The notes under the pieces were generated by a model. It saw only the letters and a program-made list of their open reading frames with translations. It was not told the origin of the DNA and made no database searches. Positions 22,107-50,801 of a stretch of DNA of 64,000 nt are shown here, piece by piece. Every line of letters starts with the position of its first letter. The first letter of the stretch is position 1. The DNA is from Candidatus Dojkabacteria bacterium (GTDB lineage: Bacteria > Patescibacteriota > Dojkabacteria > B142 > OLB20). The translations under genes were made by a program, and so were the position numbers. The DNA is taken from assembly GCA_035444565.1 (NCBI GenBank), contig DAOMOX010000004.1:12000-75999 (forward strand), in the 5' to 3' direction.

Positions 22107-22117
22107 AAGTATACCTA
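22107..22117 (-). promoter_or_regulatory. Candidate operator TAGGTATACTT, 34 nt upstream of the dnaE start
   Basis: The minus strand reads TAGGTATACTT. The identical 11-mer sits at the lexA start at 49630-49640. Confidence 0.3.
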
Positions 22118-22147
22118 ATGAGATACTTTATAATCAAAAAATTCGAA

Positions 22148-34771: not shown

Positions 34772-35145
34772 ATTTTTCAGAATTTAAGTTTAAATAATTG
34801 ATAACTCCCATAAAAAGAAACAAGATGATAATATCACGGAACAGCCCTCGAGTCAATGTGTTTGGAATAATATGGTAAAGTTTATATTATCAAACTAACT
34901 CGATTAATTAATTAGCAAATAAAAAAATATCTCTGGATTATCCAGAGGATTTCTTTACTATAATAGACGAACCCGAATTGTGTTGATCTTGAAAGAGTTA
35001 TCGGTGATAACTCGAATAGTAAAAACGCTATTTTTCCCTCGGAAGAGGGGATTTCTCGCATTCATTTACCAAACGGTATTTCATTGGAAACCACCACCTA
35101 GAGATCCGTCCCGCCATGTGTTTGAGGCGGGATCAGTCAGGGAAA

Positions 35146-36405
35146 TTATATAACCAATAACGGTATTTCCATCTCGTCCAAACTCATCCCTCCATGAGTC
35201 CCTTTATTATTGTGGAGAGGTAAAAGCGGGTGGTCCCAGAATACAGTTGTATCAGGGTCGGTTATTATCATTAAATCACCAATATGCTCTATGAACTTTT
35301 GGCTGGGTTTGGTATTCCCATAAAAACCACTTTCTATTGCTTCTACTTTGGTGAGTACCAACGCATGATATCCGAGTAACTGTTTAATTTTTTCTTTAGC
35401 AATTTCAACGAATTCTGCTTTTAAATATAAATAGTAGTGTCTAATCGAGCCATCACTAATTAGTTTAACTCCATCAGCATTCGTTCTAACCCAATCTTCG
35501 AGTTCTGGGATTTCCCTATTTAGCATAATTGTCTTTTTCATATCAAACTGTGTATGACCGTGATCGGCTGTAATCAATATCAAAGTGTCCTCCGGGGTAT
35601 TTTTTACTAGATTCTCGTAAATTTCATTCAAAGTTTTATCGGTTAAATGTGCAATTTCTTCAGAGTGAGGACCAAAAACATGTGAATTTTTATCTATGTC
35701 ATCGAAATAGACATAAAAGTAGTTTTTACCTTCGGATTGCTGAATTCTTTTATTAACATATTGTAATCCCTCTATAAAATTTTGATATCCAAATATATTT
35801 CTAATGTTTGAAATCTTTTTATTGTAATTGCTTTTCGCGTAGGTGTTTAAAATTACAAGATGAGACTCTATGTCTGACTCGTGAAGTCTTTCATAAAAAT
35901 TTCCTTTGTTTAAAATAAAATCGAAATCTTCAGAATTCAAAGTTCCTTTGTATTGATAAGGTTCTATGTAGACATAAGGAAGTGGCCTAACCAGTGCGTC
36001 AAGCTCTGGTACAAAATAACTCCAACCTATTACCCCTGTATCTAGCGAAGTCAGACCAGTATTCATGCAGGTGACACAATTTGCGGTAGTAGATGGAAAA
36101 ATTGCTGTCAGTTTGGATATTATTCCCTTTTGATCTATATGTTTCAATGTTGGGTGAGTGTTTATATTATCTTCAATCAAGTTCCATCCCATCGCATCTA
36201 CTAAAATTACCACCACATTTGTATATTTTGAGAGCTCTTTAGGAAGCGTGTCCGAAGGTAATATTATTTGATTGCTTTTACCGGTAAGGATTTTTTCAAC
36301 TGTTGCCGGAATATTTCCAAAACAATATGAATCGTAGAGAGGTTTCCGAAATCCTTCTCTTACCAAACTCGAATCTACTGCTGTTATTGATTTTTGATTT
36401 ACCAT
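35146..36405 (-). CDS. Alkaline-phosphatase-superfamily protein (nucleotide pyrophosphatase/phosphodiesterase or metalloenzyme-mutase-like)
   Basis: Metal-site motifs VVILVDAMGWN and ITADHGHT are typical of the AP/NPP/iPGM superfamily. Confidence 0.6.
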   Translation of the reverse strand: MVNQKSITAVDSSLVREGFRKPLYDSYCFGNIPATVEKILTGKSNQIILPSDTLPKELSKYTNVVVILVDAMGWNLIEDNINTHPTLKHIDQKGIISKLTAIFPSTTANCVTCMNTGLTSLDTGVIGWSYFVPELDALVRPLPYVYIEPYQYKGTLNSEDFDFILNKGNFYERLHESDIESHLVILNTYAKSNYNKKISNIRNIFGYQNFIEGLQYVNKRIQQSEGKNYFYVYFDDIDKNSHVFGPHSEEIAHLTDKTLNEIYENLVKNTPEDTLILITADHGHTQFDMKKTIMLNREIPELEDWVRTNADGVKLISDGSIRHYYLYLKAEFVEIAKEKIKQLLGYHALVLTKVEAIESGFYGNTKPSQKFIEHIGDLMIITDPDTTVFWDHPLLPLHNNKGTHGGMSLDEMEIPLLVI

Positions 36406-36539
36406 TATTAAGTAAAACAGATTTGATTATATAGCGAAAAATTGAAAGAAGATAGTTATTCTATTTGTAGAAAATTAAATTACGTATCTTTGATTAATAT
36501 TTAATTTACGTTCATAATAGAAATAATAAATATTGTTAT

Positions 36540-37340
36540 ATGGCAATTTCTGTTTCTATACCTAATACACCTAAGACTAAAAAGGAGAATATTATTGCGA
36601 CTTATAATTTGCATAAATATTTCTATACAGGTGTTGGCGAAACCCAAGTTCTGCATGGAATAGATTTGGAAATTAAAAGAGGTGAATTTATCATCATATT
36701 TGGACCATCTGGCTCAGGTAAATCTACCCTTCTCCATTCAATGATTGGACTAGAAAGTCCTACCAAAGGTAGAGTTGAGTTATTTAATCAGGATCTTTAT
36801 GCTCAAAATGAAGACGAAAGATCAATGACTAGATTGGAGAAAATTGGAATTATGTACCAACAACCAATATGGGTAAAAGCAATGAATGTAGCTCATAATG
36901 TAGCCTTACCATTAAATTTGCTAGGTACTCCACATAGAGAAGCTATGAAAATTGCCGAGGAAAAATTGAAAAGCTATGCTATGGATAAGTGGGCTAAATA
37001 TAAACCAACTGAGTTATCCTCTGGACAACAGCAAAAGATTTCATTGATACGTGCTTTAATTACAGAGCCGGAGATACTAATCGCTGACGAGCCTACTGGT
37101 AATCTTGATATAGATTCGAGCAAGAGATTAGTTGAAGGTTTGAAAGAACTTAATATTATCGGTAGGACCGTGATAGTAGTCACACACGATTTACAATATC
37201 TATCCTACGCAGATAGAACTTTCTATATTAAAGATGGTAACCTAGCTGGAATTTATATGCAGGATGAGACAAAAGAACTGATAGACGATGTTCTAAACAA
37301 AGGTAAATCAATATTTAAATTAGAAAAAACTGCTAAATGA
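36540..37340 (+). CDS. ABC transporter ATP-binding protein (MacB/LolD/FtsE-like)
   Basis: Walker A GPSGSGKSTLLH, signature LSSGQQQKISLIRAL, Walker B ILIADEPTGNLD. Confidence 0.9.
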   Translation: MAISVSIPNTPKTKKENIIATYNLHKYFYTGVGETQVLHGIDLEIKRGEFIIIFGPSGSGKSTLLHSMIGLESPTKGRVELFNQDLYAQNEDERSMTRLEKIGIMYQQPIWVKAMNVAHNVALPLNLLGTPHREAMKIAEEKLKSYAMDKWAKYKPTELSSGQQQKISLIRALITEPEILIADEPTGNLDIDSSKRLVEGLKELNIIGRTVIVVTHDLQYLSYADRTFYIKDGNLAGIYMQDETKELIDDVLNKGKSIFKLEKTAK

Positions 37341-38863
37341 ATTTAGAAGAATTAAAATCAAGATTTGGTCCAATATTTGAAACGCTATTTAGCTCTGTCT
37401 TTATAGAGATTACTATCATCTTAATAGTGATTATGTTGGTAGTGATAAATATTCAGAGGTTTAGACGATATAGGATTAAAGTCTCTTTAATTGATCTACT
37501 CTACATTGCTGGTGTTAACCTAATGGTTCGTAGAACAAGAACAATAGTAACTATAGTGGGTATGTCGATAGGTATAGCTTCGATTGTATTTCTAGTTTCT
37601 ATCGGCTATGGGATGCAGGACTTGGTGATTTCAGAAGCAACCAGGCTGGAAGAGTTGAAACAAGTGCAAGTATCAACCCAAGCTGGAAGCAAATTAAGAT
37701 TGAACGATACGGTTTTAGCTGATTTAAAGAAGATCCCTAATGTCCAAAAGACTCTGCCGGTAGTTGCTATAGTCGGTGACATGTCTTACAAACAATCAAA
37801 TGCCGCTATTCCGGTTTATGGGGTGACAACAGATTATCTCAAAGAATCAGCAATCCAACCTGTTTATGGAGAACTCTTTGAAAGTAATGAGACTTATTAC
37901 GAAGTTAAACAAGCTGAGAATTTAACAGAAGTGAATGAAACAAAGAATACAGAAAGTGCAAACTTACTGGAAAATCCAGTAGAAGTTTCCGAAGGTGAGG
38001 AGTTTATCGAACTTGATACAGAAAATACAGATGGAGAGAAAATTGACGTTGATGAAATAAATTTGCCAAATACTGCTTTAAAAGAAATCGTTATGAATAG
38101 ATCCGCAATCGAGATTATTGGATTGCCTTTTGATGACGCTGTCGGAGAAAACGTAAGTCTTGCTTTTACTGTCACAAACCAACATCTCAATAGAGAAGGA
38201 ATAAAAGTTGTTTCATTACCAGAAAATTTCACTATTGTAGGAGTACTCTCTGATAACTCGGAACCAGCAATCTACACGCCTTTCTTTAATTTGAGAACAT
38301 TAGGAGTTGTGAATTTTACAGAAGTCCGAATAATCACCGATGATCAAAATAATGTGCAAAGAATTAGAGAACAAGTTGAAGCGCAAGGTTATCTCACTAC
38401 ATCCGTTCAGGATACAGTTGCAGAAATTGAACAATTGTTTAGTAGCGTGAGGATTGGGTTAGGACTAATTGGAGCATTTGGTTTAGCTATCGCTTCACTC
38501 GGAATGTTTAACACATTGACAGTTTCTCTTCTTGAGCGAACAAAAGAAATCGGTCTGATGAAGACTATAGGTATGAAATCTGCGGAAGTTCGTCTATTAT
38601 TCCTTATTGAGTCATTGTTAATGGGTTTCCTAGGAGGTGTGTCGGGCTTGATGTTGGGTTACTTAGGAGGGAAATTAATCAGTTTGATATTAACCTCATA
38701 TTCTATTAGTAAAGGTGGTAATGCTATAAGCGTGAGCAGTATTCCTTTCACATTCGTCTTCTTGGTAATTGCATTATCTATCATGGTGGGATATTTGACA
38801 GGATTATTCCCCGCTAGAAGAGCTACAAAAATTTCTGCACTAAATGCTCTTCGTTACGAATAA
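37337..38863 (+). CDS. ABC transporter permease of the MacB/FtsX (type VII) family with large extracytoplasmic domain
   Basis: TM1 is followed by a ~300-aa extracytoplasmic domain with an acidic insertion. C-terminal FtsX-like 3-TM bundle LERTKEIGLMKTIGMKSAEVRLLFLIESLLMGFLGG. Start overlaps the ATPase stop. Confidence 0.85.
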   Translation: MNLEELKSRFGPIFETLFSSVFIEITIILIVIMLVVINIQRFRRYRIKVSLIDLLYIAGVNLMVRRTRTIVTIVGMSIGIASIVFLVSIGYGMQDLVISEATRLEELKQVQVSTQAGSKLRLNDTVLADLKKIPNVQKTLPVVAIVGDMSYKQSNAAIPVYGVTTDYLKESAIQPVYGELFESNETYYEVKQAENLTEVNETKNTESANLLENPVEVSEGEEFIELDTENTDGEKIDVDEINLPNTALKEIVMNRSAIEIIGLPFDDAVGENVSLAFTVTNQHLNREGIKVVSLPENFTIVGVLSDNSEPAIYTPFFNLRTLGVVNFTEVRIITDDQNNVQRIREQVEAQGYLTTSVQDTVAEIEQLFSSVRIGLGLIGAFGLAIASLGMFNTLTVSLLERTKEIGLMKTIGMKSAEVRLLFLIESLLMGFLGGVSGLMLGYLGGKLISLILTSYSISKGGNAISVSSIPFTFVFLVIALSIMVGYLTGLFPARRATKISALNALRYE

Positions 38864-38955
38864 ACTTCTACGAAAAAAGTTCATTTTCCTTCGAAAGAAG
38901 GAATCTCTCCCGAATGTATTCTCAAGTAAATTCCATAAAAATCATATAATAGAGA

Positions 38956-38983
38956 TCCCTGATCAAGTCAGGGAAATTTTTAG
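38956..38983 (+). terminator. Hairpin plus T-run between the ABC permease and the giant gene
   Basis: TCCCTGA-TCAAG-TCAGGGA followed by AATTTTTAG. It lies ~10 nt upstream of the annotated start of the giant ORF. Confidence 0.4.
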
Positions 38984-38993
38984 TTGAATTGAT

Positions 38994-41900
38994 TTGAAAT
39001 GTTTCTCAAAAAAAGTTAAATTATATAAACCAATTTCACTAATAATGCGCGTTTCGCGTCCTAATAAAAGCTTGCAGAGAATGCATCGAGACTATTCTCG
39101 TATATTTCGTATACGGAAGAATTTCATACGCAAAAAACTTAAACAAATCTCCAAATTTTTGTTCTTCAAGAAGATAACATTAGCTAGGTGGCAGTTGAAT
39201 ACTTTTACTGTCATGATGCTATCTCTTGGATTTGTCCTTGGCACCTATGCGATGGTTATGGAATTAGTCCCGATTCTGAGGGCTCTCGATGAAACTAGTT
39301 ATACTTTAGTTCAAGGAGGAGATGGTGAATTAACTTCTGGTAGTGGAACTGACGTTGTGATTTCAGCTTCCGCAGTGTCTTTGGGAAAAGACGATAACTG
39401 GTTTGATATGGGCTGGAACCTGAAGAGACAGTTGACTATCAAAAATCTATCAGCAATCACACTTCCTTCAAATACTCCTATTCAATTAACATTAAACACA
39501 AAGGAATTATTTGATGCTTCTAATATTCAGAATGACTGTGATGATCTTAGAGTTATTTATTCTACTGGGGTGGGCAACCATACAGAACTAGCTAGAAGCT
39601 ACTATAAAGCAAGTGGTGCCACGGATTGTTCTGATTCTACTGCGACTGTAGTCACATTCCCAATTCAAGCGGAGCTGACTGCTGGTGCAACAAGCAGCAA
39701 TTACTATTTATACTATAAAAATTCAGGTGCGACTAACCCTGGTTTTGGTGATAATGGCTATAACATAGGCGACGCTGAGGCAACCATGGTCTGTCCGTTT
39801 AATGGTTCGACGACTTGTGTGGATGGTGAGACACCAAGCACTGCAACTGGAGCTTTAAGATTTTCGGGAGGGAGTGCGATTGAAACAGATGGTGCTTGGG
39901 ATAATCCTGATAAAATCACTGGACCGACATTGCCTTCAGTTTCGCAATACACAATAGAGTTCTTTGTCAAAAATAATGGTAACTTTAATTCGTATGCAGG
40001 AATTTACGGAGGGTGGGGTGGTTTTGACGCAAATGATATAAATACTGGAGGCAGTGTAAATGGAATGTTGTTAAATCCTGGTTCGCTAGGTCTGATAGGA
40101 TTAACAGTAAATCACTCTAGTGGTCAATGGGTTCATTTAGCATTCGTTTATGATGGAGTAAATTATTCTGTTTATGAGAATGGTAATAGGATTTACTATA
40201 CACCAAAGACCTTCAGTATTTCAGCCCAAGGGTTCTATCTGGGTGCTAGGAATAGCTACCGAGGATTCAAGGGTCTATACGATGAATTTAGAATTTCCAA
40301 TATTGCAAGGTATTCAGGGAGTTTTACAACCCCAACATCTAACTTCACTGCCGATGCAAATACTTTAGTTTTGTATCATTTTGATGAAAATGGAGATGAT
40401 TTACGAAATACAGGTAAAGCTTATGATTCGAGTGGAAATGGATATCATGGAACAATCTCAGGAGCGAAATACACTTCAAACACCCTCGGTATTTATCAGG
40501 GTACAGCTACTCCTATAAAGACACAAAATATTTTTACTCACGAAGGGGTTCTGTTGGAAGAAGGGGCTACCAATCTAATTACAAATCCGAGTTTTGAAAA
40601 TACAACTTACAACCTAAATTGGGGTAATAGTTTCTTCAATTACAACAACACCTTGGATACCTTTACTGCTTCTATAACTAAAAGAAATAGTGCTGGTCCA
40701 TTTACGTCTGGTGTGATACTACAAGATGATTACGGAGATACCAGTAGTTTGACTTCTGATCAGTTGTCTTTTTCACACGGAACAACTTTGTGGGGAGATT
40801 TTTCAAATAGTAGTGATGATGACCAAGGGACATTAGTTTTCTGGTGGACTCCTGAATATAGTTCTTCCACGATGAATACTGGAAGTACTATGTTTATGGA
40901 AATGCGTTCTTCAAGTAATTTTACATATAACTGGGTAGATGATAAATTTTACCTTGGGGGTTCTCCAATTGGCACTTATGATTTTTCCGCAGGACAGACA
41001 TATTTAGTCGTCTTACGTTGGGATAAAGATAATAATATAATTGCAAATACTGCAAATCTTTCAATAGACAATGTAAGCATAGGAGATGCATCATCATCTG
41101 GACATGTTTGGGAAGATGATTGGGGCTCAACTAATTTATGGGCATTTGATGGTGTAGTCGAAGGTATGACAGTTTACCGAAGACCACTTTTCGATGGATT
41201 GTATGGTATTGACATGGGAACCGGAGATGAAATTGAACAGATTTATAATGCTGGTGCAGGTAAAGATCCTACTTTGATAACAGGAAGTTGGGACGTAGTT
41301 TTTGCAATGCCAACTAACTCTGATAACGGTGTTATTACAACTGGGACAGGGAATGCATGGAGTCATCCACATCAATTAAACCTCCTATATACAAATTCAA
41401 CTAATACGGGTGGTTATATGTTAAATGGTGATTATAGTATTGATAATTGGACTGGTATTGCTAGTCCTCAATCAATCAGTGCATTAAGCACTGTTGAAAA
41501 AATTTATTCTGGTGGTTATAAGATAGAATCAAATTTAATAAATCAAGGTATTTCAAGAAGCTTTGCAGCATCAAGCGGAGGCGATTATGTAATTAGGGCG
41601 ATTGGAAATTCAGATGGAACCTGTACTCCAGTTGTTAAAATTTTACGAGCTGATGGAATTACGGAGATTACAAGTAAGGTGGGAACATCTCTATCAACAA
41701 AAAGCTCGCCAGAAGTATATATCTTCACTTGGGAATCTCCAGCGCTTGAAGATAATATTATCCAACTTCTGAATACCAACAGTAGTGGTATTTGTTATTG
41801 GCATCAAGCTGAGGTTTATAATAACTTGTTTAATAATCCTTCTTTAGAATCTGGAGCAGGCGACCCATGGATACCTACCAGTTGGTGGAATGCAAACATT

Positions 41901-44900
41901 CCTGTCGGGGGGACTCAGCAAGAAACAACTATAGTGCACAGCGGTCAATCATCAATTAAACACAACCTAAACTCACTAAACACTTCAATAGGAACAAATC
42001 TAAATACAAATCCTCCTACAGGAAGTTACTTTGTAGTCGGAGGACACTTTTACGGTGTACCAAATGGTAACGGTAAAAATCAACTTAGTGCCCATAATTA
42101 TTCAGATTTACAACATCAGCCATTACAAAGGCAGTTATTGGGTTTAAAGATAGCTGAATGGCACCATACAGTAGGTGTATATCGGAAGGCACAGGGAAGT
42201 AACACAATTTGGGGTGTAGGTTTAATTGAGGGAACAGGAGTTCATCCAGTATATTCTGACGATCTGTATGCTATTTCTTTGAGTGATGTCTCCCTCAATG
42301 TGAGTCCTGCGAGTGAAGTTAATAGTACAGAAACGACAGGTATAAGGGTTGATGGAAGAGATGTGCTAAGTCAACCCATAACGGGCTTATCAGCTGATAA
42401 AGGACTTGTAAAGTTTAAGTTCACTCCGAGACATAGCTTTAGTATTGCAGATAAGTTCGGAGTAGCAAATCCAGTTATTGTTACACTTACATATGATGGA
42501 AATAGCTATATTAAAATTCAAAAGCAAGACCCAACGACGCTTCGAATGATTGTAAAATTTAATGATAGCCAATCTCTAAATCTTGATTGGAATAACGCTA
42601 TTTTAAATGCTGGCACATCTTATGACTTTGAGATACGTTATTATTCAGGTGGAACTATTAGTTTATCGGTTAATGGAGAAGTAAAAGCGATAGCTTCTGG
42701 TGCCACAAATTTCGCTAACGTTCCAAATACAGCGTATTTTGGTTCTGATGGAGGTGCGAATGTCTATGACTCAACTATTAATAGTTTTGTTTCTTTAACA
42801 CCTACAGAAAATCTAACACAATCAAATCTAAAATTTGGGACAAGGAGTCTTAAACTAGTGAATAGTGGAGCTTCACCGGACGAATATGTAACGGACTTTA
42901 CCTCTACGACGAATGCAGCACATACAGTTAGTGCATATATTTTCAATGCGACCTCTGGGGATATTGGAGAAGCAGTAAGCACCTCTGTCGCACAAATAAT
43001 TTTAGATGGAGAATTACAAACGACTCAGTACGAGGATGCTGGAGGAGGTTGGTGGAGGTTGTTAAGTAGGATAAATAAAATTTATGGAGATTATCCAACT
43101 ACTAATATGGATTCTGACCAAGGCCTTTTCACAGGTACATCAAACAGGCTTCTTTCACAAAGCATTAAACCAACCCAAAACCTTCAAACAGTTCAGGTTG
43201 TAATTCCTTTGAAAAAGGTAGGTGCTGGAACTCCTACAACTACCCATTATCAAGTTCGTATCAATACAGATATTGGTGGAGCTCCATCCGGGACTCTTCC
43301 TCCCGGTGGACATTCTTCTTGTATAGCAGTAACTACAAGTACCTCTTATCAAAATATAAGTTTTACTATACAAACAAGTCTCGCAGCTAATACAACATAT
43401 CATTTGGTATTAACCCCATACGTAAATAGTAACTGTAGCACTTTGCAAACAACCGCTGATCCTACAAACTACATAGCATGGGGATATGATGGATCAACTT
43501 CAAGTTACCTACCTGGTGAGAGATCGATATACGATGGAAGCACTTGGACCCAACAAACCTCAAAAGATCATATTTTCACACTGTACACCGGGAGGACTAT
43601 GGTTGTTGGTTTACGTGTTATGCCAGGTAAAAGTGTTTATATGGATGGGGTGCAGGTTGTAAGTTCTACTTCTCTTTCTAACCCATTGCCTCATACTTAC
43701 ACAGATGGTAGTCTGGGTGCTGGTTATGGATGGACCGGGGAAGAACACAACTCTACAAGTACTCGAACACGAGACTCTCTATACTATCCCGTTCAAGACT
43801 CTTTTGGTCCTACTTCGGGAACAGTGAGCTTTTGGTTTAAACCATACAGGCCATTTGGAAGCGGATATGATCAGTCTGCTCAACACTGGATATATTCTTC
43901 ACATACAACTCAGGGTTCACAATCCTCGGTAAGTGCTTATGTTGATAGTGGGAGAAATTTAAACTTTAGGTTGGCAAATGATGCAAACCAAGTTTTTGAT
44001 ATAAGTCAGGGACCCTGGAGTGCAGGAATATTTCAAGTACAAAAATGGCACAATATGGTACTTGTTTGGGATGGGACAAAGTTCAGCGCATATATAAATA
44101 ATGTATTGTATGGAGAAATTAACTATACAGGTACACTGACAATTAATAACGCCAATATGGGCATAGGGTCTACTTCAGGATGGGCTCCAGCTTTTGGAAC
44201 AATCTCGGATTTCAGAATCTATAACAACTCATTAGATGTAAATGAAGTAGGATACCTCTATCAATCCGGCCTCTCTACGCACACCCAAAGTGATATCGAT
44301 GATAAGAAATACAAAACTACTGCCGATTATGAATCTGGAGTACTTGATCTCGGGAATGCTGGACAATGGGGGAACTCACCAAATTTGTTGATTACTGAAG
44401 CTTTAAACGGAAATACCATCAATTACCAAACTCGGAGTTCAGAGGATAACCTCGTATGGTCTGATTATGCTGCCGTTAGCGGTGACACACCTAATCTAAC
44501 GATTTCAAGCCCTCCAAAAAGATATCTACAGGTAAAGGCAACTTTGAATTCACCAAACCAAAACACGACTCCTGAGTTTAATGGTGCACAAATCAATTAC
44601 GTTCAAGATGCAATACCACCAGAGGTTAACGCTACAGAAACAACTATGAAAAGAACAGTCTCTGGGGATACTATAATAGAAAATAACTTTTCAAATTCTC
44701 AAGCTCCGTATTTCAGCTGGGTTGAGGGTGGAGATGATGCCGATGGGTCTGGACTTCGTGGATATTGTTTATATTTAGGTCCAGACATTGCGGGAAATCC
44801 AGCAAATGATAAAGGACTTTTGGGTTCAAGTCCTGGTTCAACTGCAAATACGACGTGTCCTTTTGTGGTAACTACAAATTCCATTGATTTTGCAAATACA

Positions 44901-47213
44901 AATCTAAGAGGAAACACATGGTTACAATCAACTACTGATCCATATTACATAGTTATCAGGGCTGTTGATAATACTGGAAATGTTTACGACCTAGAGCCAG
45001 AAATATTCGGCTTCAAGTTTGATAACACTCCTCCTACTAATCCTAGCGGTTTATTTGCCCCTGCCAGTTACCAGAGATCTTTCGATAGTTTTGTAATATC
45101 ATGGCCAGCCGATGGGACAAATATGGCTCAAGACACACATTCATTAGTAAAAGGTTTCCAATACAAACTTGGTACAAACGGTACTTGGTATGGAGGTGGA
45201 CACACCGGAGATCAAGATTGTAATGACGTTTTGACAACAAATACCTACGCGCTTGATGCCAACTTCGATAACCTACCGTCTGGAGAAACTCCGTTTTATC
45301 TTAGGACTCTTGACTATGCGTGTAATACATCCGCTTCGGCAATTTCGGCAATCTTAAAATACAACTCGACTGCACCGTCAGCTCCGCGAGATCTGTCGGT
45401 TACTCCAGTAACTAACGATAAAAATGAGTTCTCTTTTACTTGGTTGACCCCAGAAATATACCAGGGAGCGGAATCCAACTTGTCATATTGTTACACAGTT
45501 AATACTCTTCCTACGTCTGGTACTTGTATTTTTACAAGCAGTAAATCATTAAATCCTGATGCATTTGCAACACAACCTGGAGAAAATACATTCTATGTAG
45601 TAAGTCGTGATGAGGCCTCAAATATTAACTATGGGGATTATGCATCAATAAAATTCTACGCCAACACATCAGCCCCTGGTGTTCCTAGAAATTTAGATGT
45701 TGCAGATATTTCTGTTAAAACAACTAAAAACTGGAGACTGACCGTATCGTGGGACGAACCAGAAGACTTAGGTGCTGGAGTTGCAAAATACTTTATCTAT
45801 AGATCATTTGCTGAAAATGCTAATTGTAGTGAAAACTTCTCTTTATTTGGAAAAGTTGGAGAAACTGCTGGAGGCTCTTATGTTGACACAAATCTTCAAC
45901 AAAAAGATCATTTCTATTGTGTGAGAGCATGCGATTCGACAAATAACTGTTCTGCAGTGTCTTCGACGGGTAGTAACTTCCCTGATGGTAAATTTACTAG
46001 TCCTGCGATACTTGAATCAGCCCCTGTTGTAAGTAGTGTTTCAACAAGAAGTGCGAGGATTAGCTGGATAACAGATCGAGATTCAGACTCAAGAATTTCA
46101 TATGGATTGGCAAGCAATGATTATTTCAAAGAAGAAGTTGGAAATTCAGAGCAACGAATTGATCATGATTTGATACTTACAAATCTAGAGCCTGGAACAA
46201 CATACTATTTCCAAGCTAAATGGACAGATGAAGATGGAAACTTAGGATTATCCGACGAATATACATTTAAAACTGCACCACCCCCAAGTGTGAAGGATGT
46301 TGTGGTCAGTAGTGTTGGCATTAGTACTGCAGTTATCAACTTCACGACGACTGGTTCATCAAAGGTAAACTTCCTCTATGGTACTTCCGTAAGTTTTGGA
46401 TCAAGTAAAGAAATCGCAACTAGTCCTCTTGAGTCAAGATACACTACCCTACTTGATGGTTTATCAGAAGGAAGTAAGTATTATTTCAGAGTTGATACTG
46501 AAGATGACGAAGGCTATGTTTATGAAGGTACTGTTCTTGATTTCAATACATTGCCACAACCAAAATTATCGAATGTGCGAATTCAACAAGTGAAAAATGC
46601 TGCTCAACCAACAGTCTTAGTCTCCTGGGAATCAAACACAGAAGTCACCTCTGTGGTTAGTTTATTCCCTGAGGGTAAAGCAGATTTGATTAGAGAGGAA
46701 GTTAATTTAGATTTAAAAGGTGGCGAACATCAGATGATTATTCGTGGGCTGTTACCGAATACTGTGTATGAGTTATTAGTTAAGGGGTCTGATAAATTAG
46801 GAAATCAAGCAACATCAACTGCACAGAGAATAACAACTGCAACTGATACTAGACCTCCTGCAATTTCAAACGTACAGATTGAAGCTGGTAAAGGTAATGT
46901 TACTGATAGTTCTCAATTCATAGTTACATGGACAACAGACGAGCCCACCACTTCACAAGTTGAATATGGAGAAGGTACAGGTAGTAGCTATCCACAGAGA
47001 TCACAATTGGATAGCAATTTTACACTTGATCACACCATCGTAATTTCTGGTTTAGCACCTGGAAAGGTTTACCATTTGAGAGCAGTTTCAACTGACGATG
47101 CAGAGAACACAACATACTCTCTAGACTATGTCGCAATTACTCCAAAAGAGTCTAATAGTGCAATAGAGCTTGTGATTAGTAGCTTGTCTAGGGTGTTCTC
47201 CTTCCTGAGATAA
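38994..47213 (+). CDS. Giant (2739 aa) TM-anchored cell-surface protein: DUF2341-like, multiple LamG/ConA-like jellyrolls, CBM4/9-like modules, FN3 domains and four C-terminal PAP-N/FN3-like repeats
   Basis: Basic N-terminus then TM ([19 protein letters not shown]). DUF2341-like aa ~130-255 (…[12 protein letters not shown]…[11 protein letters not shown]). LamG-like TIEFFVKNN…[19 protein letters not shown] and [12 protein letters not shown]…[19 protein letters not shown]…[11 protein letters not shown]-like [21 protein letters not shown]3 [14 protein letters not shown]…FSFTWL and [11 protein letters not shown]…[10 protein letters not shown]. Four ~95-aa repeats [17 protein letters not shown]…[28 protein letters not shown]…[24 protein letters not shown]…[26 protein letters not shown]…[16 protein letters not shown]. 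Confidence 0.8.
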
Positions 47214-47216
47214 ATT

Positions 47217-48506
47217 TCATCGACTGCCTATAACCGGAATCTCCTCCCACCTTGTAGTATATCTCGGTGAACGAAGTGCCTGTTCTTTGATTGGATTCAA
47301 GAAAACCATTTGATTCGCATACTTAACTGTGCCTTTTCCCCAGATAGAGTTGAGTTTATCAAACGATTTCATAAGGATTCTCTGTTTTATATCTTCTTGA
47401 GGATTTGGGGTAGTGAAAATGTTTTGTTGGTATTCGCCTTTATTGTAGAAATTCTCCAAAAACACCCCTGCCCTTTTGTATTTGTATCCTGAGCGGAAAA
47501 TCTGCCTCAGGCCATTGAGCGCATTCTTCGTCAAGAGTGGTGTGTAATCGGTAGGTGTTTCGAGTTTTATCAAGTATGAATTAGAGTATCGTCCTTCGGG
47601 GGTAAATCTATCTGTTGTAAGGAAAACCCAAATCCTGGATGTTACTGAACCCTGTGCTCTTAGGCTTCTGGAGGCACTATCGGTGAAGCGTGCTACCGCT
47701 TGAGCGACTTGGTTGTATTCGGTGTAAGCTTTCTTGAACGTACGGCTACAGAGTATGCCTTTTTTCGAGCTACGATGTGGGTTGATTGGGTAACATCGAA
47801 TACTATGGAGTTCAAGCCAGGTACGTTCGAGCATAACTCCATATTCTTGTCGAAGTAGATGTCTATCAGCTTTGAGGAGGCTTGGGATGTCTGCAATATC
47901 AAAAATCTTTAATCTTCTAGCAATACGTCCTCCTATTCCCCAAATGTCATCAATGTCGAGATGTTTTAAATATTCAATATGTCTATAGTCGGTAATGTCA
48001 TTTATCTGATAAACCCCATCATTTTCGATGAATTTCTTGGCGATTTTGTTAGCAAGTTTGGCTAAGGTTTTGGTGTTTGCTAGTCCGATTGAGATTGGAA
48101 TACCTGTCCAGCGATAAATTGTCTCTTTCATTTCTATTGAGTTCCGAAGCATTCTCTGTGGTGACGTTATAGGAATTCGTAGAAATGCCTCATCAATAGA
48201 ATATATCTCAATTTCCTGACAAAACTCATGTAGTGAACGAAATACTCTCTCTGACATATCCTGATAAAGTGTAAAGTTTGCGGAGCGCACAGCGACGTTG
48301 TTCTCGATAAATCGATCTTTCCATTCAAATAGAGGAGCTCCCATGGGGACTCCCATGGCTTTCAATTCGTTTGATCTGGCGATGACACATCCGTCATTAT
48401 TAGAGAGAACCGCTGTCGGGCGATTACGGAGTGTCGGATCAAAGACTCTCTCGCAAGAAACATAGAAATTATTGCAGTCGACGATACCATAAATATCGGA
48501 AGACAT
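47217..48506 (-). CDS. umuC: Y-family translesion DNA polymerase, UmuC-like (Pol V catalytic subunit)
   Basis: IYGIVDCNNFYVSCERVFDPTLRNRPTAVLSNNDGCVIARSNELKAMGVPMG aligns closely with E. coli UmuC (MFALCDVNAFYASCETVF…VVVLSNNDGCVIARN). Confidence 0.85.
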   Translation of the reverse strand: MSSDIYGIVDCNNFYVSCERVFDPTLRNRPTAVLSNNDGCVIARSNELKAMGVPMGAPLFEWKDRFIENNVAVRSANFTLYQDMSERVFRSLHEFCQEIEIYSIDEAFLRIPITSPQRMLRNSIEMKETIYRWTGIPISIGLANTKTLAKLANKIAKKFIENDGVYQINDITDYRHIEYLKHLDIDDIWGIGGRIARRLKIFDIADIPSLLKADRHLLRQEYGVMLERTWLELHSIRCYPINPHRSSKKGILCSRTFKKAYTEYNQVAQAVARFTDSASRSLRAQGSVTSRIWVFLTTDRFTPEGRYSNSYLIKLETPTDYTPLLTKNALNGLRQIFRSGYKYKRAGVFLENFYNKGEYQQNIFTTPNPQEDIKQRILMKSFDKLNSIWGKGTVKYANQMVFLNPIKEQALRSPRYTTRWEEIPVIGSR

Positions 48507-48976
48507 CAGAGTTCATGAATATTGTAGGCAACTACACCCCATATCTCGAAGTCGTTCTCCGGAGTAATACGATAAAGTGTGGATCTGGTATTCCAGGGCG
48601 TCAAATATGTGATGTGTTTAGATATTAATATCTTTTTGATTAATAATTCACCATCTAGGCTCACGACAACGATTGATTTATCTGTAATGGGTAATGAACG
48701 ATCCACTACAAGTAAATCTCCTTTGTGGATTCCCCATTTTCTCAAGTCATTATCCCCTGCTTTCATAAAAAATGTACTGGAAGGCTTTTTAATAAGATAT
48801 GACTGAATATCGAGTTTTAGGTCAGATTCGTTTCGAATAGGAGTCGAAAAAGCTACTGTAGAAAGTTCGAGATCCTTTCGAGATTCATTTTTCTGTTCTT
48901 CGTACAATCTAGTCGAACGGAAGTCCTCCTGATAGTCTAAGAATGTTGTTTCGGGTGCGTAGATATTATTCTGCAT
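48506..48976 (-). CDS. umuD: UmuD-like S24-fold protein with substituted nucleophile (GDND instead of GDSM) and no Ala/Cys-Gly cleavage site
   Basis: KAGDNDLRKWGIHKGDLLVVDRS…VVVSLDGELLIKKI aligns with UmuD [21 protein letters not shown]…AAVDGEFTVKKL. The Lys is conserved and the Ser is Asn. Start shares 48506 with the umuC stop and the other end overlaps the lexA stop. Confidence 0.7.
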   Translation of the reverse strand: MQNNIYAPETTFLDYQEDFRSTRLYEEQKNESRKDLELSTVAFSTPIRNESDLKLDIQSYLIKKPSSTFFMKAGDNDLRKWGIHKGDLLVVDRSLPITDKSIVVVSLDGELLIKKILISKHITYLTPWNTRSTLYRITPENDFEIWGVVAYNIHEL

Positions 48977-49628
48977 GTTTGGTTGAGAAATTAGGGTTAT
49001 CTAAAACTGCTACGACTTTGCCGTAGATATCTGTATCTCCTAGAGAAGATGCATCTAGGTAGAATGGTTTGTGTCGTGTGTTGGTGGACTCTGGGTAAAG
49101 TACCACGATGTTTCGGTCTTTTTTGATAGTTTTGATAGTTGCGCAGTTATCGATAATTGCTAAAACAACATCGCCATTTTTGATATCAACGTTTTTTGCT
49201 ATGACTGCATACTTGCCATCCTCGAGTGTTCCTCCATCAACTTCACGCATGTTCATAGAATCTCCTTTTATCATAAGGGCGAAGACGTCCTTGGTGACTG
49301 GAAGGAGACTGCGATTAATACGTAAATAGCCAAGTTGTTGTTCCTGGGCTATCACCATAGGTGCTCCAGCATTTGCATAGCCGAGGATATTTACATCTAT
49401 AAACATCTGTCCGGACTGTGTTTCCCGAAGAGTTATACCTCGGGACGACGAAGATCGATTTATCAATCCTTTTTTCTCAAGTGCTTGTAGATGTTTAACG
49501 ACTGCTCTGCGAGTGATACCAAGTGCTCGCTCCATCTCTGTAAGTGTGGGTGCTTGGCCAGTTTCGATAATGAAGGACTTTATAAGGGATAGTATTTCGT
49601 TTTGTCTTGTGGTTATGGTATGTGTCAT
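48966..49628 (-). CDS. lexA: LexA repressor (wHTH + S24 autopeptidase, intact)
   Basis: Likely start is the second Met (MTHTITTRQNEILSLI…). The ORF-track start at 49685 would translate the upstream repeat region. wHTH LTEMERALGITRRAVVKHLQALEKKGLI. Cleavage site ANAGAP, GDSM and IKTIKK are conserved. Confidence 0.8.
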   Translation of the reverse strand: MTHTITTRQNEILSLIKSFIIETGQAPTLTEMERALGITRRAVVKHLQALEKKGLINRSSSSRGITLRETQSGQMFIDVNILGYANAGAPMVIAQEQQLGYLRINRSLLPVTKDVFALMIKGDSMNMREVDGGTLEDGKYAVIAKNVDIKNGDVVLAIIDNCATIKTIKKDRNIVVLYPESTNTRHKPFYLDASSLGDTDIYGKVVAVLDNPNFSTKHAE

Positions 49629-49629
49629 A

Positions 49630-49673
49630 TAGGTATACTTAATATACTTAAAATGGTATACAAGGTATACAAG
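49630..49673. promoter_or_regulatory. Repeat-rich candidate LexA operator region at the lexA start: TAGGTATACTT, (TATACTTAA)x2, (GTATACAAG)x2
   Basis: Three GGTATAC cores plus tandem direct repeats directly abut the lexA ATG. The 11-mer TAGGTATACTT recurs upstream of dnaE. Confidence 0.35.
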
Positions 49674-49741
49674 AATGTCAAGCAATTAATATAATTTTAT
49701 GAACTTTAATATTGGAAGATTGAAGTACTAAGTTATCTAAG

Positions 49742-50071
49742 TTAGATATATTTCTCACCGAGTTTCTTGTGATTCTTGCCCCAAGTAGACATTGAAACTA
49801 AAACAGGTCTTAGAGTTTTCCCGTAAGGAGTGATTGAATATTCAACCTTTGGTGGGATCACGGGAAATATCTTTCGCTTTATGAGTCCATCTTTTTCAAG
49901 TTCACGTAACTGCGATGTAAGCATTTTTTGTGTAATACCGGTGATTTCTTTCTGTAATTCACTAAATCTTAGAGTTTTTTGATCAAGATGCCACAGAAGA
50001 AGTGGTTTCCACTTTCCTCCTATTACTTTCAAAGTAATATTTACCGGGTTATCACTGTTGCAGACTCTCAT
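49742..50071 (-). CDS. HxlR-family (MarR-like wHTH) transcriptional regulator
   Basis: TLKVIGGKWKPLLLWHL…LRFSELQKEITGITQKMLTSQLRELEKDGLIKRKIFPVIPPKVEYSITPYG is the HxlR/DUF24 signature. Start trimmed to the internal Met (ORF track extends to 50167 and would overlap the divergent neighbour). Confidence 0.75.
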   Translation of the reverse strand: MRVCNSDNPVNITLKVIGGKWKPLLLWHLDQKTLRFSELQKEITGITQKMLTSQLRELEKDGLIKRKIFPVIPPKVEYSITPYGKTLRPVLVSMSTWGKNHKKLGEKYI

Positions 50072-50192
50072 TTGACGAATATTAGTATATATAATGTAAG
50101 TATAGCATATAAAAGTAAGTACTTGTATTAAATATAACATATCTTGTATGGTGTTTGTATCCTTCATTACTTTATTTATTATTTATATAACT

Positions 50193-50801
50193 ATGTGGAA
50201 CAAAATAGCGGATGATGCAACAATTATGAAAACAGTAAAAGCTTTAGAAGCCAACCAATTTTTAGTCACAGTGGTAAATAATGCCATTGAAGCAAAAAAG
50301 GAAATCGAAACATTAATCCCAGCAGGCTCACAGGTAATGCAAATGAGTTCGGAGACATTAGATAATACAGGAATTTCCGATATGATTAATTCAGATAACT
50401 TTGATGCAATTAAACCAAAATTGTGGGCAAAAGGTGAGAATGCACTCTCTCCTCAAGAGAAAGCTATTGCAGCAAACTTGGCTAAATATTCAGTCGGGAG
50501 TCTACAAGCCATCACAGGAAATGGAGAATTAGTAATTGCTTCAAACACAGGGAGTCAGATGGCTGCTTATGTTTATGGGTCAGAAAAAGTAATATTCGTC
50601 GTAGGTGCTCAGAAACTAGTTAAAGATATTGATGCAGCTATGAAGAGGATTTATGGTCACGTTTTACCTCTTGAAAGTGAACGAGTGAAAAAAGCTTACG
50701 GTATGGAGAAAAGTAATGTAAGTAAGTTGTTAATAATCAATAAAGAGACACAACCTGAAAGAATTCATATAGTAATCGTTAAAGAGAGTCTCGGGTTCTA
50801 A
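50193..50801 (+). CDS. LUD-domain (LutC/YkgG-like) protein
   Basis: MWNKIADDATIMKTVKALEANQFLVTVVNNAIEAKKEIETLIPAGSQVMQMSSETL matches the LUD (lactate-utilisation) domain layout. Start trimmed to the internal Met. Divergent from the HxlR regulator. Confidence 0.55.
   Translation: MWNKIADDATIMKTVKALEANQFLVTVVNNAIEAKKEIETLIPAGSQVMQMSSETLDNTGISDMINSDNFDAIKPKLWAKGENALSPQEKAIAANLAKYSVGSLQAITGNGELVIASNTGSQMAAYVYGSEKVIFVVGAQKLVKDIDAAMKRIYGHVLPLESERVKKAYGMEKSNVSKLLIINKETQPERIHIVIVKESLGF

What the first reader, a model, noticed from the sequence alone, without database searches (positions are those of the whole stretch)
49630..49673. Candidate novel SOS operator: 11-mer TAGGTATACTT shared by the lexA start region and the dnaE-rsmA-tgt-uvrB upstream region
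Abutting the lexA ATG are three GGTATAC cores and two tandem direct repeats, (TATACTTAA)x2 and (GTATACAAG)x2. The exact 11-mer TAGGTATACTT recurs on the same coding strand 34 nt upstream of dnaE at 22107-22117. There it sits within an imperfect inverted repeat AAAGTATC-N6-GGTATACTTT. dnaE heads a run ending in uvrB, a classic SOS gene. The motif does not match the described LexA boxes (CTGT-N8-ACAG, GAAC-N4-GTTC, and others). It could therefore be a lineage-specific LexA operator. This is inference from co-occurrence; an exact 11-mer shared between two ~100-bp promoter regions is unlikely by chance even in AT-rich DNA.
Basis: partly seen in the sequence, partly recalled or inferred. Interest (0 to 1): 0.6.

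Follow-up and report, generated by a model that had tools for sequence, protein, structure and literature searches.

The report
LexA operator repeats at lexA promoter
The GTATACC repeats in front of lexA are almost certainly where this Patescibacteria (Dojkabacteria-type) bacterium's LexA repressor shuts off its own lexA-umuD-umuC operon, but the matching 11-mer upstream of dnaE is just that gene's -10 promoter box, so nothing links dnaE or uvrB to the SOS response.

Summary
The sequence features are at the stated coordinates. Two parts of the argument fail: the statistics, and the link to dnaE.

**lexA promoter.** lexA is on the minus strand (ATG at 49628) and heads a lexA / umuD-like / umuC-like operon. 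Its promoter reads TTGACA-N5-GTATACC-TT-GTATACC-AT. The predicted -10 (TACCAT) lies inside the second heptamer. A weaker pair, GTATATT-AA-GTATACC, follows 14 bp downstream.

**Conservation.** This layout is kept in 10 other Dojkabacteria-type lexA promoter loci (LexA 99% to about 47% identical), while the flanking DNA has diverged. Two more keep looser GTATAC repeat arrays.
- About 50 distant lexA promoters lack it.
- The heptamer is about 200 times denser in lexA promoters than in the other 218 kb of related DNA.
- The tandem pair occurs nowhere else, apart from one chance-level hit.

**dnaE 11-mer.**
- 99.65% of random 113-bp windows share an exact 11-mer with the rest of this 64-kb window.
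- The dnaE copy is a single heptamer, in the opposite orientation to the gene.
- It overlaps a predicted TTGATT-18-TATACT promoter.
- In five dnaE orthologues the heptamer is kept in two, its G is lost in two while TATACT stays, and it is absent in one.

**Verdict.** A real lineage-specific LexA autoregulatory operator, with no evidence for a dnaE-uvrB regulon. Novelty is modest. A direct-repeat LexA motif is already reported for Patescibacteria, but I could not read its consensus.

The parts
48966..49628 (-). lexA (220 aa): LexA DNA-binding domain plus S24 peptidase domain, with the Ala87-Gly88 cleavage site, Ser124 and Lys166 retained
   Evidence: Pfam PF01726 and PF00717. Full-length alignment to E. 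coli LexA structures, E about 1e-23. These residues are invariant or nearly so in 34 clade members.
48506..48976 (-). umuD-like gene (S24 domain only, 156 aa). It overlaps the lexA stop. It lacks the Ser nucleophile (GDND in place of GDSM) and the Ala/Cys-Gly cleavage site.
   Evidence: Pfam PF00717; alignment A3 with orthologues.
47217..48506 (-). umuC-like Y-family DNA polymerase (429 aa), last gene of the operon
   Evidence: Pfam IMS, IMS_C, IMS_HHH and DUF4113. The lexA-umuD-umuC order is conserved in L100, L102, L104 and L112.
49676..49681 (-). predicted -35 hexamer TTGACA of the lexA promoter
   Evidence: Promoter scan gives TTGACA-17-TACCAT, 10 of 12 matches. TTGAC[AT] sits at a fixed distance from the repeats in 9 loci.
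49655..49670 (-). Operator O1: perfect tandem GTATACC-TT-GTATACC, which is also a 15-bp dyad GTATAC-N3-GTATAC. It fills the promoter spacer and overlaps the -10.
   Evidence: The pair is present with 0-1 mismatch at the same promoter position in every lexA locus examined with LexA identity from 99% to about 47%.
49653..49658 (-). predicted -10 hexamer TACCAT, formed by the 3' part of the second O1 heptamer plus AT
   Evidence: GTATACC-AT is invariant in 9 aligned promoters.
49632..49647 (-). Operator O2: weaker tandem GTATATT-AA-GTATACC, predicted to cover about +1 to +15 of the transcript and ending 3 nt before the ATG.
   Evidence: A strong GTATACC lies 22-23 bp (14 or 32 bp in some loci) downstream of O1 in the orthologous promoters. 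Its position is fixed relative to the promoter, not to the ATG.
22107..22117 (-). Second copy of the 11-mer, upstream of dnaE. It is not part of the operator system. It contains the predicted dnaE -10 hexamer TATACT (22108-22113), paired with the -35 TTGATT (22132-22137).
   Evidence: Promoter scan gives TTGATT-18-TATACT. In the orthologues, the promoter layout and TATACT are conserved in 4 of 5, and GGTATAC in only 2 of 5.

Best explanation
The GTATACC heptamers at 49632-49670 are the operators through which this bacterium's LexA represses its own lexA / umuD-like / umuC-like operon.

**Anatomy (shown).** Two heptamers 9 bp apart (O1, GTATACC-TT-GTATACC) fill the spacer between a TTGACA -35 and a TACCAT -10, and overlap the -10. 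A second, weaker pair (O2, GTATATT-AA-GTATACC) sits just downstream, over the predicted transcription start and the short leader.

**Mechanism (inferred).**
- A LexA dimer bound at O1, probably helped by a second dimer at O2, blocks RNA polymerase.
- After DNA damage, RecA-stimulated self-cleavage of LexA at Ala87-Gly88 would free the promoter.
- The repressor and a Pol V-like translesion polymerase are then made together.

**The dnaE copy.** It is not an operator. It is the -10 box (TATACT, with a conserved G two bases upstream) of an ordinary sigma-70-type dnaE promoter. It shares the TATAC core by chance in AT-rich DNA.

**Shown:** the anatomy, the conservation, the specificity to lexA promoters, and an intact LexA. 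**Inferred:** that LexA is the protein that binds, the stoichiometry, and the transcription start.
For: **Conserved promoter layout**
- TTGAC[AT]-N5/6-GT[A/G]TACC-N2-GTATACC-AT is invariant in the window, L001-L004, L100, L102, L104 and L021. L112 has the same layout.
- L109 has a variant, GTATACC-AA-GTGTACC. L110 and L020 have looser GTATAC arrays.
- DNA upstream of the -35 is unalignable.
- L001 differs at 9% of lexA nucleotides, yet all three heptamers are intact while neighbouring promoter bases changed.

**Specificity**
- GTATACC/GGTATAC density is 28.2 per kb in 90-bp lexA promoter windows, against 0.14 per kb in the other 218 kb of related DNA.
- GTATACC-N2-GTATACC with up to 2 mismatches occurs only at lexA promoters in 211 kb, plus one hit inside a coding region.
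- GTATAC-N3-GTATAC with up to 1 mismatch occurs only at lexA promoters in 20 loci, plus one hit. By my own estimate about one chance hit is expected.

**Tied to the LexA clade and to lexA itself**
- About 50 lexA promoters of LexA only 29-39% identical have no such cluster.
- Loci where lexA stands alone, without umuDC, still carry the repeats.
- The upstream neighbour differs between loci (hxlR in the window only), so a neighbour-encoded regulator is unlikely.

**Position and protein**
- The promoter scan places O1 between the -35 and the -10.
- LexA is full length, with its cleavage site and Ser/Lys dyad.
- The residues aligned to the E. coli recognition helix differ, which fits a changed specificity (inference).

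**dnaE site**
- It overlaps TTGATT-18-TATACT.
- L105 and L106 have GTTATACT there, yet their lexA promoters on the same contigs (L102, L100) keep the heptamer pairs.
- L114 has no motif at all.
- The last base tells the two apart. lexA heptamers end in C, where a -10 needs its most conserved T. The dnaE element ends in an invariant T.
Against: - No binding data exist; that LexA is the binding protein is inferred from position and co-distribution.
- No second, independent SOS promoter carrying the motif was found. Only the 64-kb window and about 200 kb of related loci could be scanned. recA, uvrA and ruvAB were not available.
- The one umuDC operon found apart from lexA (L111) has no GTATAC. 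It has TATTCGG-N4-TATTCGG instead. That organism's UmuC is only 43% identical and its LexA is unknown.
- It is unresolved whether the pair is read as a direct repeat or as a dyad.
- In the window, L107 and L108, a lone GGTATAC over the dnaE -10 could still give weak LexA binding. This cannot be excluded by computation.
Confidence: 0.8

Rival explanations
1. One reading: TAGGTATACTT is a LexA operator shared by lexA and by the dnaE-rsmA-tgt-uvrB run, so the replicative polymerase and uvrB belong to the SOS regulon.
For: - The exact 11-mer is present at both places.
- The dnaE copy is intergenic and over the promoter.
- GTAAAAAAAGTATACC matches the tandem consensus at 11 of 14 positions.
- uvrB is an SOS gene in many bacteria (established knowledge).
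- GGTATACT is kept in L107 and L108.
Against: - Sharing an 11-mer is the norm in this window.
- Matches to the pair with 3 mismatches are at chance level once the lexA hits are removed.
- The copy is a single heptamer, inverted relative to the gene.
- Its G is lost in L105 and L106 while the -10 stays, although the lexA operators of the same genomes are intact.
- The spacing to the downstream TAC shifts by 1 bp in the 94%-identical L107.
- The motif and the uvrB linkage are both absent in L114.
- No tandem pair lies anywhere in four 15-kb dnaE-uvrB loci.
Confidence: 0.07
2. The conserved heptamers are bound by a regulator other than LexA, or are promoter architecture elements rather than an operator.
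For: - No binding data exist.
- The second heptamer overlaps the -10, so part of its conservation could be due to the promoter.
- No other SOS promoter with the motif was found.
Against: - Promoter spacers are not normally conserved in sequence. The first heptamer and the downstream heptamer lie outside both promoter hexamers and are conserved just as well.
- The heptamers end in C where a -10 needs T.
- The neighbouring genes vary, so there is no conserved candidate regulator other than LexA, which the operon itself encodes.
- The motif follows the LexA clade.
- lexA autoregulation is nearly universal (established knowledge; PMC8565304).
Confidence: 0.1
3. The cluster is a chance low-complexity repeat of AT-rich intergenic DNA with no function.
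For: The window is 34% G+C, and short TATA-like repeats are common.
Against: - A perfect 16-bp tandem has about zero chance expectation.
- It is conserved at the same promoter position in more than 10 genomes whose flanks are unalignable.
- It is about 200-fold enriched.
Confidence: 0.02

Closest known systems
Autoregulated lexA promoters carrying SOS boxes (E. coli lexA with two CTGT-N8-ACAG boxes; Gram-positive GAAC-N4-GTTC)
   Same: The repressor gene's own promoter carries more than one operator. The operators overlap the core promoter and the start of the transcript. The LexA protein has the same two domains, cleavage site and Ser/Lys dyad.
   Different: The consensus is unrelated: there is no match within 1 mismatch to either box. 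The half-sites are heptamers 9 bp apart with a directional trailing C.
Direct-repeat LexA boxes: Alphaproteobacteria GTTC-N7-GTTC, Balneolaeota TTACACATATTTTWTACATA, and the Patescibacteria motif of Sanchez-Osuna et al. 2017 (PMID 28618189, cited as a direct repeat in PMC7739468)
   Same: Both heptamers point the same way (GTATACC-NT-GTATACC-AT), and the organism is a Patescibacterium. A small SOS network centred on a translesion polymerase fits what those papers describe (PMC7739468, PMC8565304).
   Different: - The period is 9 bp rather than 11, and the sequence differs from the Alpha and Balneolaeota boxes.
- The 2017 consensus could not be read here.
- That study validated LexA from a Collierbacteria and a Parcubacteria genome, not from Dojkabacteria.
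- Identity with the published motif is therefore untested.
Bdellovibrio LexA box TTAC-N3-GTAA (PMC8565304)
   Same: The inner core of O1 is ATAC-N3-GTAT, a short dyad with the same N3 spacing and the same TAC/GTA triplets.
   Different: The outermost base of each arm differs, so there is no match within 1 mismatch. Here the conserved block extends to 16 bp, and the flanks are not symmetric.
lexA-linked translesion (mutagenesis) cassettes, umuDC type
   Same: lexA, an S24 UmuD-like gene and a Y-family polymerase with the UmuC-type DUF4113 tail are overlapping or abutting genes behind one promoter.
   Different: In this sub-lineage the UmuD-like protein has lost both the catalytic Ser and the cleavage site. 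The usual RecA-dependent UmuD to UmuD' activation step seems impossible.

Membership tests
LexA (SOS) operator | Lies in or overlaps the promoter of lexA or another SOS gene | tested here: met
   O1 lies between the TTGACA -35 and the TACCAT -10 of lexA-umuD-umuC. O2 lies over the predicted transcript start.
LexA (SOS) operator | Two repeated half-sites suited to a dimer, conserved across orthologous promoters | tested here: met
   GTATACC-N2-GTATACC with 0-1 mismatch is found at a fixed promoter position in all 10 other lexA loci of LexA identity 47-99% that were checked, while the flanks are diverged.
LexA (SOS) operator | The cognate LexA is present and functional (DNA-binding domain, Ala-Gly site, Ser/Lys dyad) | tested here: met
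   Pfam PF01726 and PF00717. A87-G88, S124 and K166 are conserved.
LexA (SOS) operator | The same motif lies upstream of several independent SOS genes (a regulon) | tested here: inconclusive
   - No further site was found near uvrB, dnaE, xseAB or the addA-like gene in the window or in about 200 kb of related loci.
- recA, uvrA and ruvAB were not available.
- A stand-alone umuDC (L111) lacks the motif, but it comes from a distant organism.
LexA (SOS) operator | Sequence-specific binding by LexA, and derepression after DNA damage | not testable with these tools
   This needs a band-shift or footprint assay and expression data.
Described LexA box classes (E. coli, Gram-positive, Alpha, Bdellovibrio, Geobacter, Verrucomicrobia, Leptospira, Cyanobacteria, two Bacteroidetes, Xylella, Balneolaeota) | Match to the class consensus in the lexA promoter | tested here: not met
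   There is no match within 1 mismatch for 11 of 12 patterns. The single Xylella-type hit (1 mismatch) lies next to the hxlR stop, in DNA that L001 lacks.
Patescibacteria LexA-binding motif of Sanchez-Osuna et al. 2017 | Same consensus as the published motif | not tested
   The paper is not held. Only its direct-repeat nature (PMC7739468) and the two source organisms could be retrieved.
   GGTATAC is kept in 2 of 5 orthologues. TATACT and its -35 are kept in 4 of 5. There is no tandem partner.

The most novel reading that the evidence does not exclude
Dojkabacteria LexA may recognise a motif not yet described: GTATACC heptamers in 9-bp tandem pairs, arrayed as two pairs per promoter. Its SOS regulon may have shrunk to one self-contained cassette, lexA plus a Pol V-like polymerase. 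The cassette's UmuD-like subunit can no longer be cleaved, so mutagenesis would be controlled at transcription only.
Probability: 0.4. Interest if true: 0.45.

Novelty: new member of a known kind. Interest (0 to 1): 0.3.

Why it matters
LexA boxes differ between bacterial lineages, and each new one allows the SOS regulon of that lineage to be read from sequence alone. For uncultured, small-genome Patescibacteria this is almost the only route to regulatory information.

A defined operator (GTATACC-N2-GTATACC) gives a direct, testable handle. Complete Dojkabacteria genomes can be scanned with it to see whether the damage response is just a self-regulated translesion cassette.

The negative result matters equally. 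There is no support for SOS control of the replicative polymerase or of uvrB here. An exact 11-mer match inside a 34% G+C window carries no weight on its own.

Tried and rejected
- **Literature.** The 2017 Patescibacteria SOS paper and the 2016 Verrucomicrobia paper are not held. Seven text searches produced no statement of the Patescibacteria consensus. Only its direct-repeat nature and the source organisms were retrieved.\n- **Metagenome scan with a LexA alignment**. A generic S24 pattern dominated it. It returned mostly distant LexA; only L020-L023 are Dojkabacteria-like. The distant loci were reused as negative controls.\n- **Viral-contig scan for GTATACCNNGTATACC**. It gave 120 unrelated hits, many of them coding repeats. 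None had the TTGAC[AT] promoter context, so it says nothing about the regulon.\n- **Stand-alone umuDC promoter (L111) as an independent test**. It has no GTATAC, but the organism is too distant for the result to count either way.\n- **GTATAC depletion.** I considered that the hexamer might be depleted genome-wide as a restriction-site-like palindrome. It is not: 10 observed against 9.8 expected.\n- **hxlR as the regulator.** I considered that the neighbouring hxlR gene encodes the binding protein. Rejected, because hxlR is absent from all related loci that keep the repeats.\n- **Site at 39100-39114.** I considered that it marks a second regulated promoter. It lies inside the likely coding 5' end of the giant ORF, and by my own estimate about one chance hit is expected.

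Full report
**What is at the coordinates**

The window is 34% G+C. Its closest public relative is a Patescibacteria genome bin, JAJTYI01, at about 88% nucleotide identity. The next relatives are labelled Candidatus Dojkabacteria.

lexA lies on the minus strand, with its ATG at 49628 and its stop at 48966. An S24-only umuD-like gene (48976-48506) overlaps the lexA stop. A Y-family, UmuC-type polymerase gene follows (48506-47217).

The LexA protein aligns end to end with E. coli LexA structures. It keeps the Ala-Gly cleavage site and the Ser/Lys dyad.

- three GGTATAC;
- (TATACTTAA)x2;
- (GTATACAAG)x2;
- a second exact TAGGTATACTT at 22107-22117.

The dnaE / rsmA / tgt / uvrB run is real.

One detail is wrong. 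At lexA the 11-mer is on the strand opposite to the gene. At dnaE it is on the gene's own strand. The two copies are therefore inverted relative to transcription.

**Is it more than chance?**

- 99.65% of random 113-bp windows share an exact 11-mer with the rest of this 64-kb window, about ten on average. The lexA upstream region shares ten.
- Outside the lexA promoter, GTATACC occurs three times. Shuffles give 3.75 for the whole window. One of the three is the dnaE copy. The other two lie inside the dnaE and ftsW coding regions.
- GTATAC itself is at its expected frequency.

What is far beyond chance is the cluster at lexA. A perfect GTATACC-TT-GTATACC lies at 49655-49670, and a two-mismatch copy at 49632-49647.

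**What the lexA repeats are**

I collected lexA loci from related genomes:
- L001-L004;
- L100-L104;
- L020-L022;
- L109 and L110;
- L112 and L113.

Read on the lexA strand, the promoter is TTGAC[A/T]-N5/6-GT[A/G]TACC-N2-GTATACC-AT. This holds in the window, L001-L004, L100, L102, L104 and L021, at LexA identities from 99% down to about 47%. L112 has the same layout. Everything upstream of the -35 is unalignable.

The scan tool calls TTGACA-17-TACCAT. The heptamer pair therefore fills the spacer and overlaps the -10.

A further GTATACC lies 22-23 bp downstream of the second heptamer, or 14 and 32 bp in two loci. Its position is fixed relative to the promoter, not to the ATG. It is often paired with a degenerate heptamer 8-10 bp away.

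More distant relatives keep arrays of GTATAC or GTATAT with looser spacing (L109, L110, L020, L022).

In L001, lexA differs at 9% of nucleotides but at only one amino acid. The three heptamers are untouched there, while adjacent promoter bases have changed.

**Specificity**
- Heptamer density is 28.2 per kb in 90-bp lexA promoter windows, against 0.14 per kb in the remaining 218 kb of Dojkabacteria DNA.
- With up to 2 mismatches, the tandem heptamer pair occurs only at lexA promoters, plus one hit inside a coding region.
- With up to 1 mismatch, GTATAC-N3-GTATAC occurs only at lexA promoters in 20 loci, plus window 39100-39114. By my own estimate about one chance hit is expected.
- About 50 promoters of LexA proteins only 29-39% identical have no such cluster.
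- The repeats go with lexA even where umuDC is not adjacent (L109, L110).
- The upstream neighbour differs between loci. hxlR is peculiar to the window.
- None of twelve published LexA box patterns is present in the conserved promoter.

**Most likely mechanism**

LexA represses its own operon by binding the heptamer pairs. O1 would occlude the -10 and the spacer. O2 would cover the transcript start. Self-cleavage after DNA damage would derepress lexA together with the translesion polymerase.

The trailing C of both heptamers and the asymmetric spacer (C-N-T) point to a direct repeat of a 9-bp unit, GTATACCNT. But GTATAC is itself a palindrome, so the pair is also a perfect 15-bp dyad with an ATAC-N3-GTAT core. 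That core is close to the Bdellovibrio TTAC-N3-GTAA box. Which reading LexA uses cannot be settled by computation.

The residues aligned to the E. coli recognition helix differ, as expected for a changed specificity. This is an inference.

**The dnaE copy**

Synteny (hypothetical gene / dnaE / rsmA / tgt / uvrB) is conserved in L105, L106 and L108. L107, a short contig, shows the same upstream gene and the start of the next gene.

The scan tool calls TTGATT-18-TATACT, with the -10 inside the 11-mer.

In the orthologous promoters:
- The -35 and TATACT are kept in all four, with a G two bases upstream of TATACT.
- GGTATACT is kept in L107 and L108. It becomes GTTATACT in L105 and L106.
- L105 and L106 lie on the same contigs as lexA loci L102 and L100, whose operators are intact.
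- The inverted repeat AAAGTATC-N6-GGTATACTTT is not conserved.
- The spacing to the downstream TAC shifts by one base even in the 94%-identical L107.

A fifth orthologue, L114 (63% identical), has neither the motif nor uvrB downstream.

The last base separates the two elements. lexA heptamers end in C, where a -10 needs its most conserved T. The dnaE element ends in an invariant T.

The dnaE match is best read as a -10 box that shares the TATAC core by chance.

**Comparison with what is known, and novelty**

Divergence of the LexA box between lineages, direct-repeat boxes, and small regulons centred on translesion polymerases are all established (PMC8565304, PMC7739468).

A direct-repeat LexA motif has been reported for Patescibacteria (Sanchez-Osuna et al. 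2017). It was validated with LexA from a Collierbacteria and a Parcubacteria genome. I could not read its consensus. The Dojkabacteria motif found here may therefore be the same, a relative, or a new class.

I file it as a new member of a known kind. I put roughly even odds on the consensus being already in print; that estimate is mine and is not derived from any tool result.

**Limits**
- There are no binding or expression data.
- No independent second SOS promoter with the motif was found.
- The stand-alone umuDC locus L111 lacks the motif but belongs to a distant organism.

Noticed in passing
window 48506-48976 (-); also L100:5650-6030, L102:5648-6058, L112:2677-3117: In this sub-lineage the UmuD-like protein has GDND, ADDD or EDND where the catalytic GDSM should be. 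It has VAFSTP or VSFATP where L104 and L111 have the cleavage-site motif SAGFPSP. The Lys is kept. It looks like a UmuD that cannot cleave itself, so the usual RecA-dependent activation of Pol V would be missing.
   Followed up: partly
window 49682-50800: hxlR (49742-50167, -) and a LUD-domain gene (50148-50801, +) are absent from the related genomes L001 and L002. There, about 60 bp replaces these 1.1 kb. One edge of the indel abuts the lexA -35 hexamer.
   Followed up: partly
window about 34800-47213: About 12 kb separates umuC from the 142-aa gene and the addA-like gene. It holds a phosphodiesterase, an ABC/FtsX transporter pair and a 2739-aa ORF. In L100, L102 and L112 those genes directly flank the cassette. 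L001 shares at least the 3' end of the giant ORF.
   Followed up: no
window 39100-39114: GTATATTTCGTATAC is the only near-perfect GTATAC-N3-GTATAC outside lexA promoters in about 250 kb of related DNA. It lies in the basic N-terminal coding part of the 2739-aa ORF. It is probably chance, but its conservation was not checked.
   Followed up: partly
window 48966-49628 versus L001:4001-4660: lexA is 91% identical in DNA but 219 of 220 identical in protein: about 60 nucleotide changes for one amino-acid change. That indicates very strong purifying selection on LexA.
   Followed up: no
L111:4467-4577: A Dojkabacteria-labelled umuD-umuC operon not preceded by lexA has a direct repeat TATTCGG-TTTT-TATTCGG just upstream of umuD, and no GTATAC. 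This may be the operator of a different LexA type.
   Followed up: no
L104:5642-5763: The 120-bp gap between lexA and umuD holds a long inverted repeat (GACCTTCGGT ... ACCGAAGGTC). It could be a terminator or attenuator that uncouples umuDC from lexA in that genome.
   Followed up: no
L114:1-1911: In a WS6 OLB20-like relative, a large gene with HNH_4 and RuvC_III domains (Cas9-like) lies upstream of dnaE, separated from it by an 850-bp stretch with no called gene.
   Followed up: no
window 49714-49728: The short direct repeat AACTTAG-AT-AACTTAG (minus strand) lies just past the hxlR stop. It gives a 1-mismatch match to the Xylella-type LexA pattern. It sits in DNA absent from L001, so it is probably fortuitous.
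   Followed up: no
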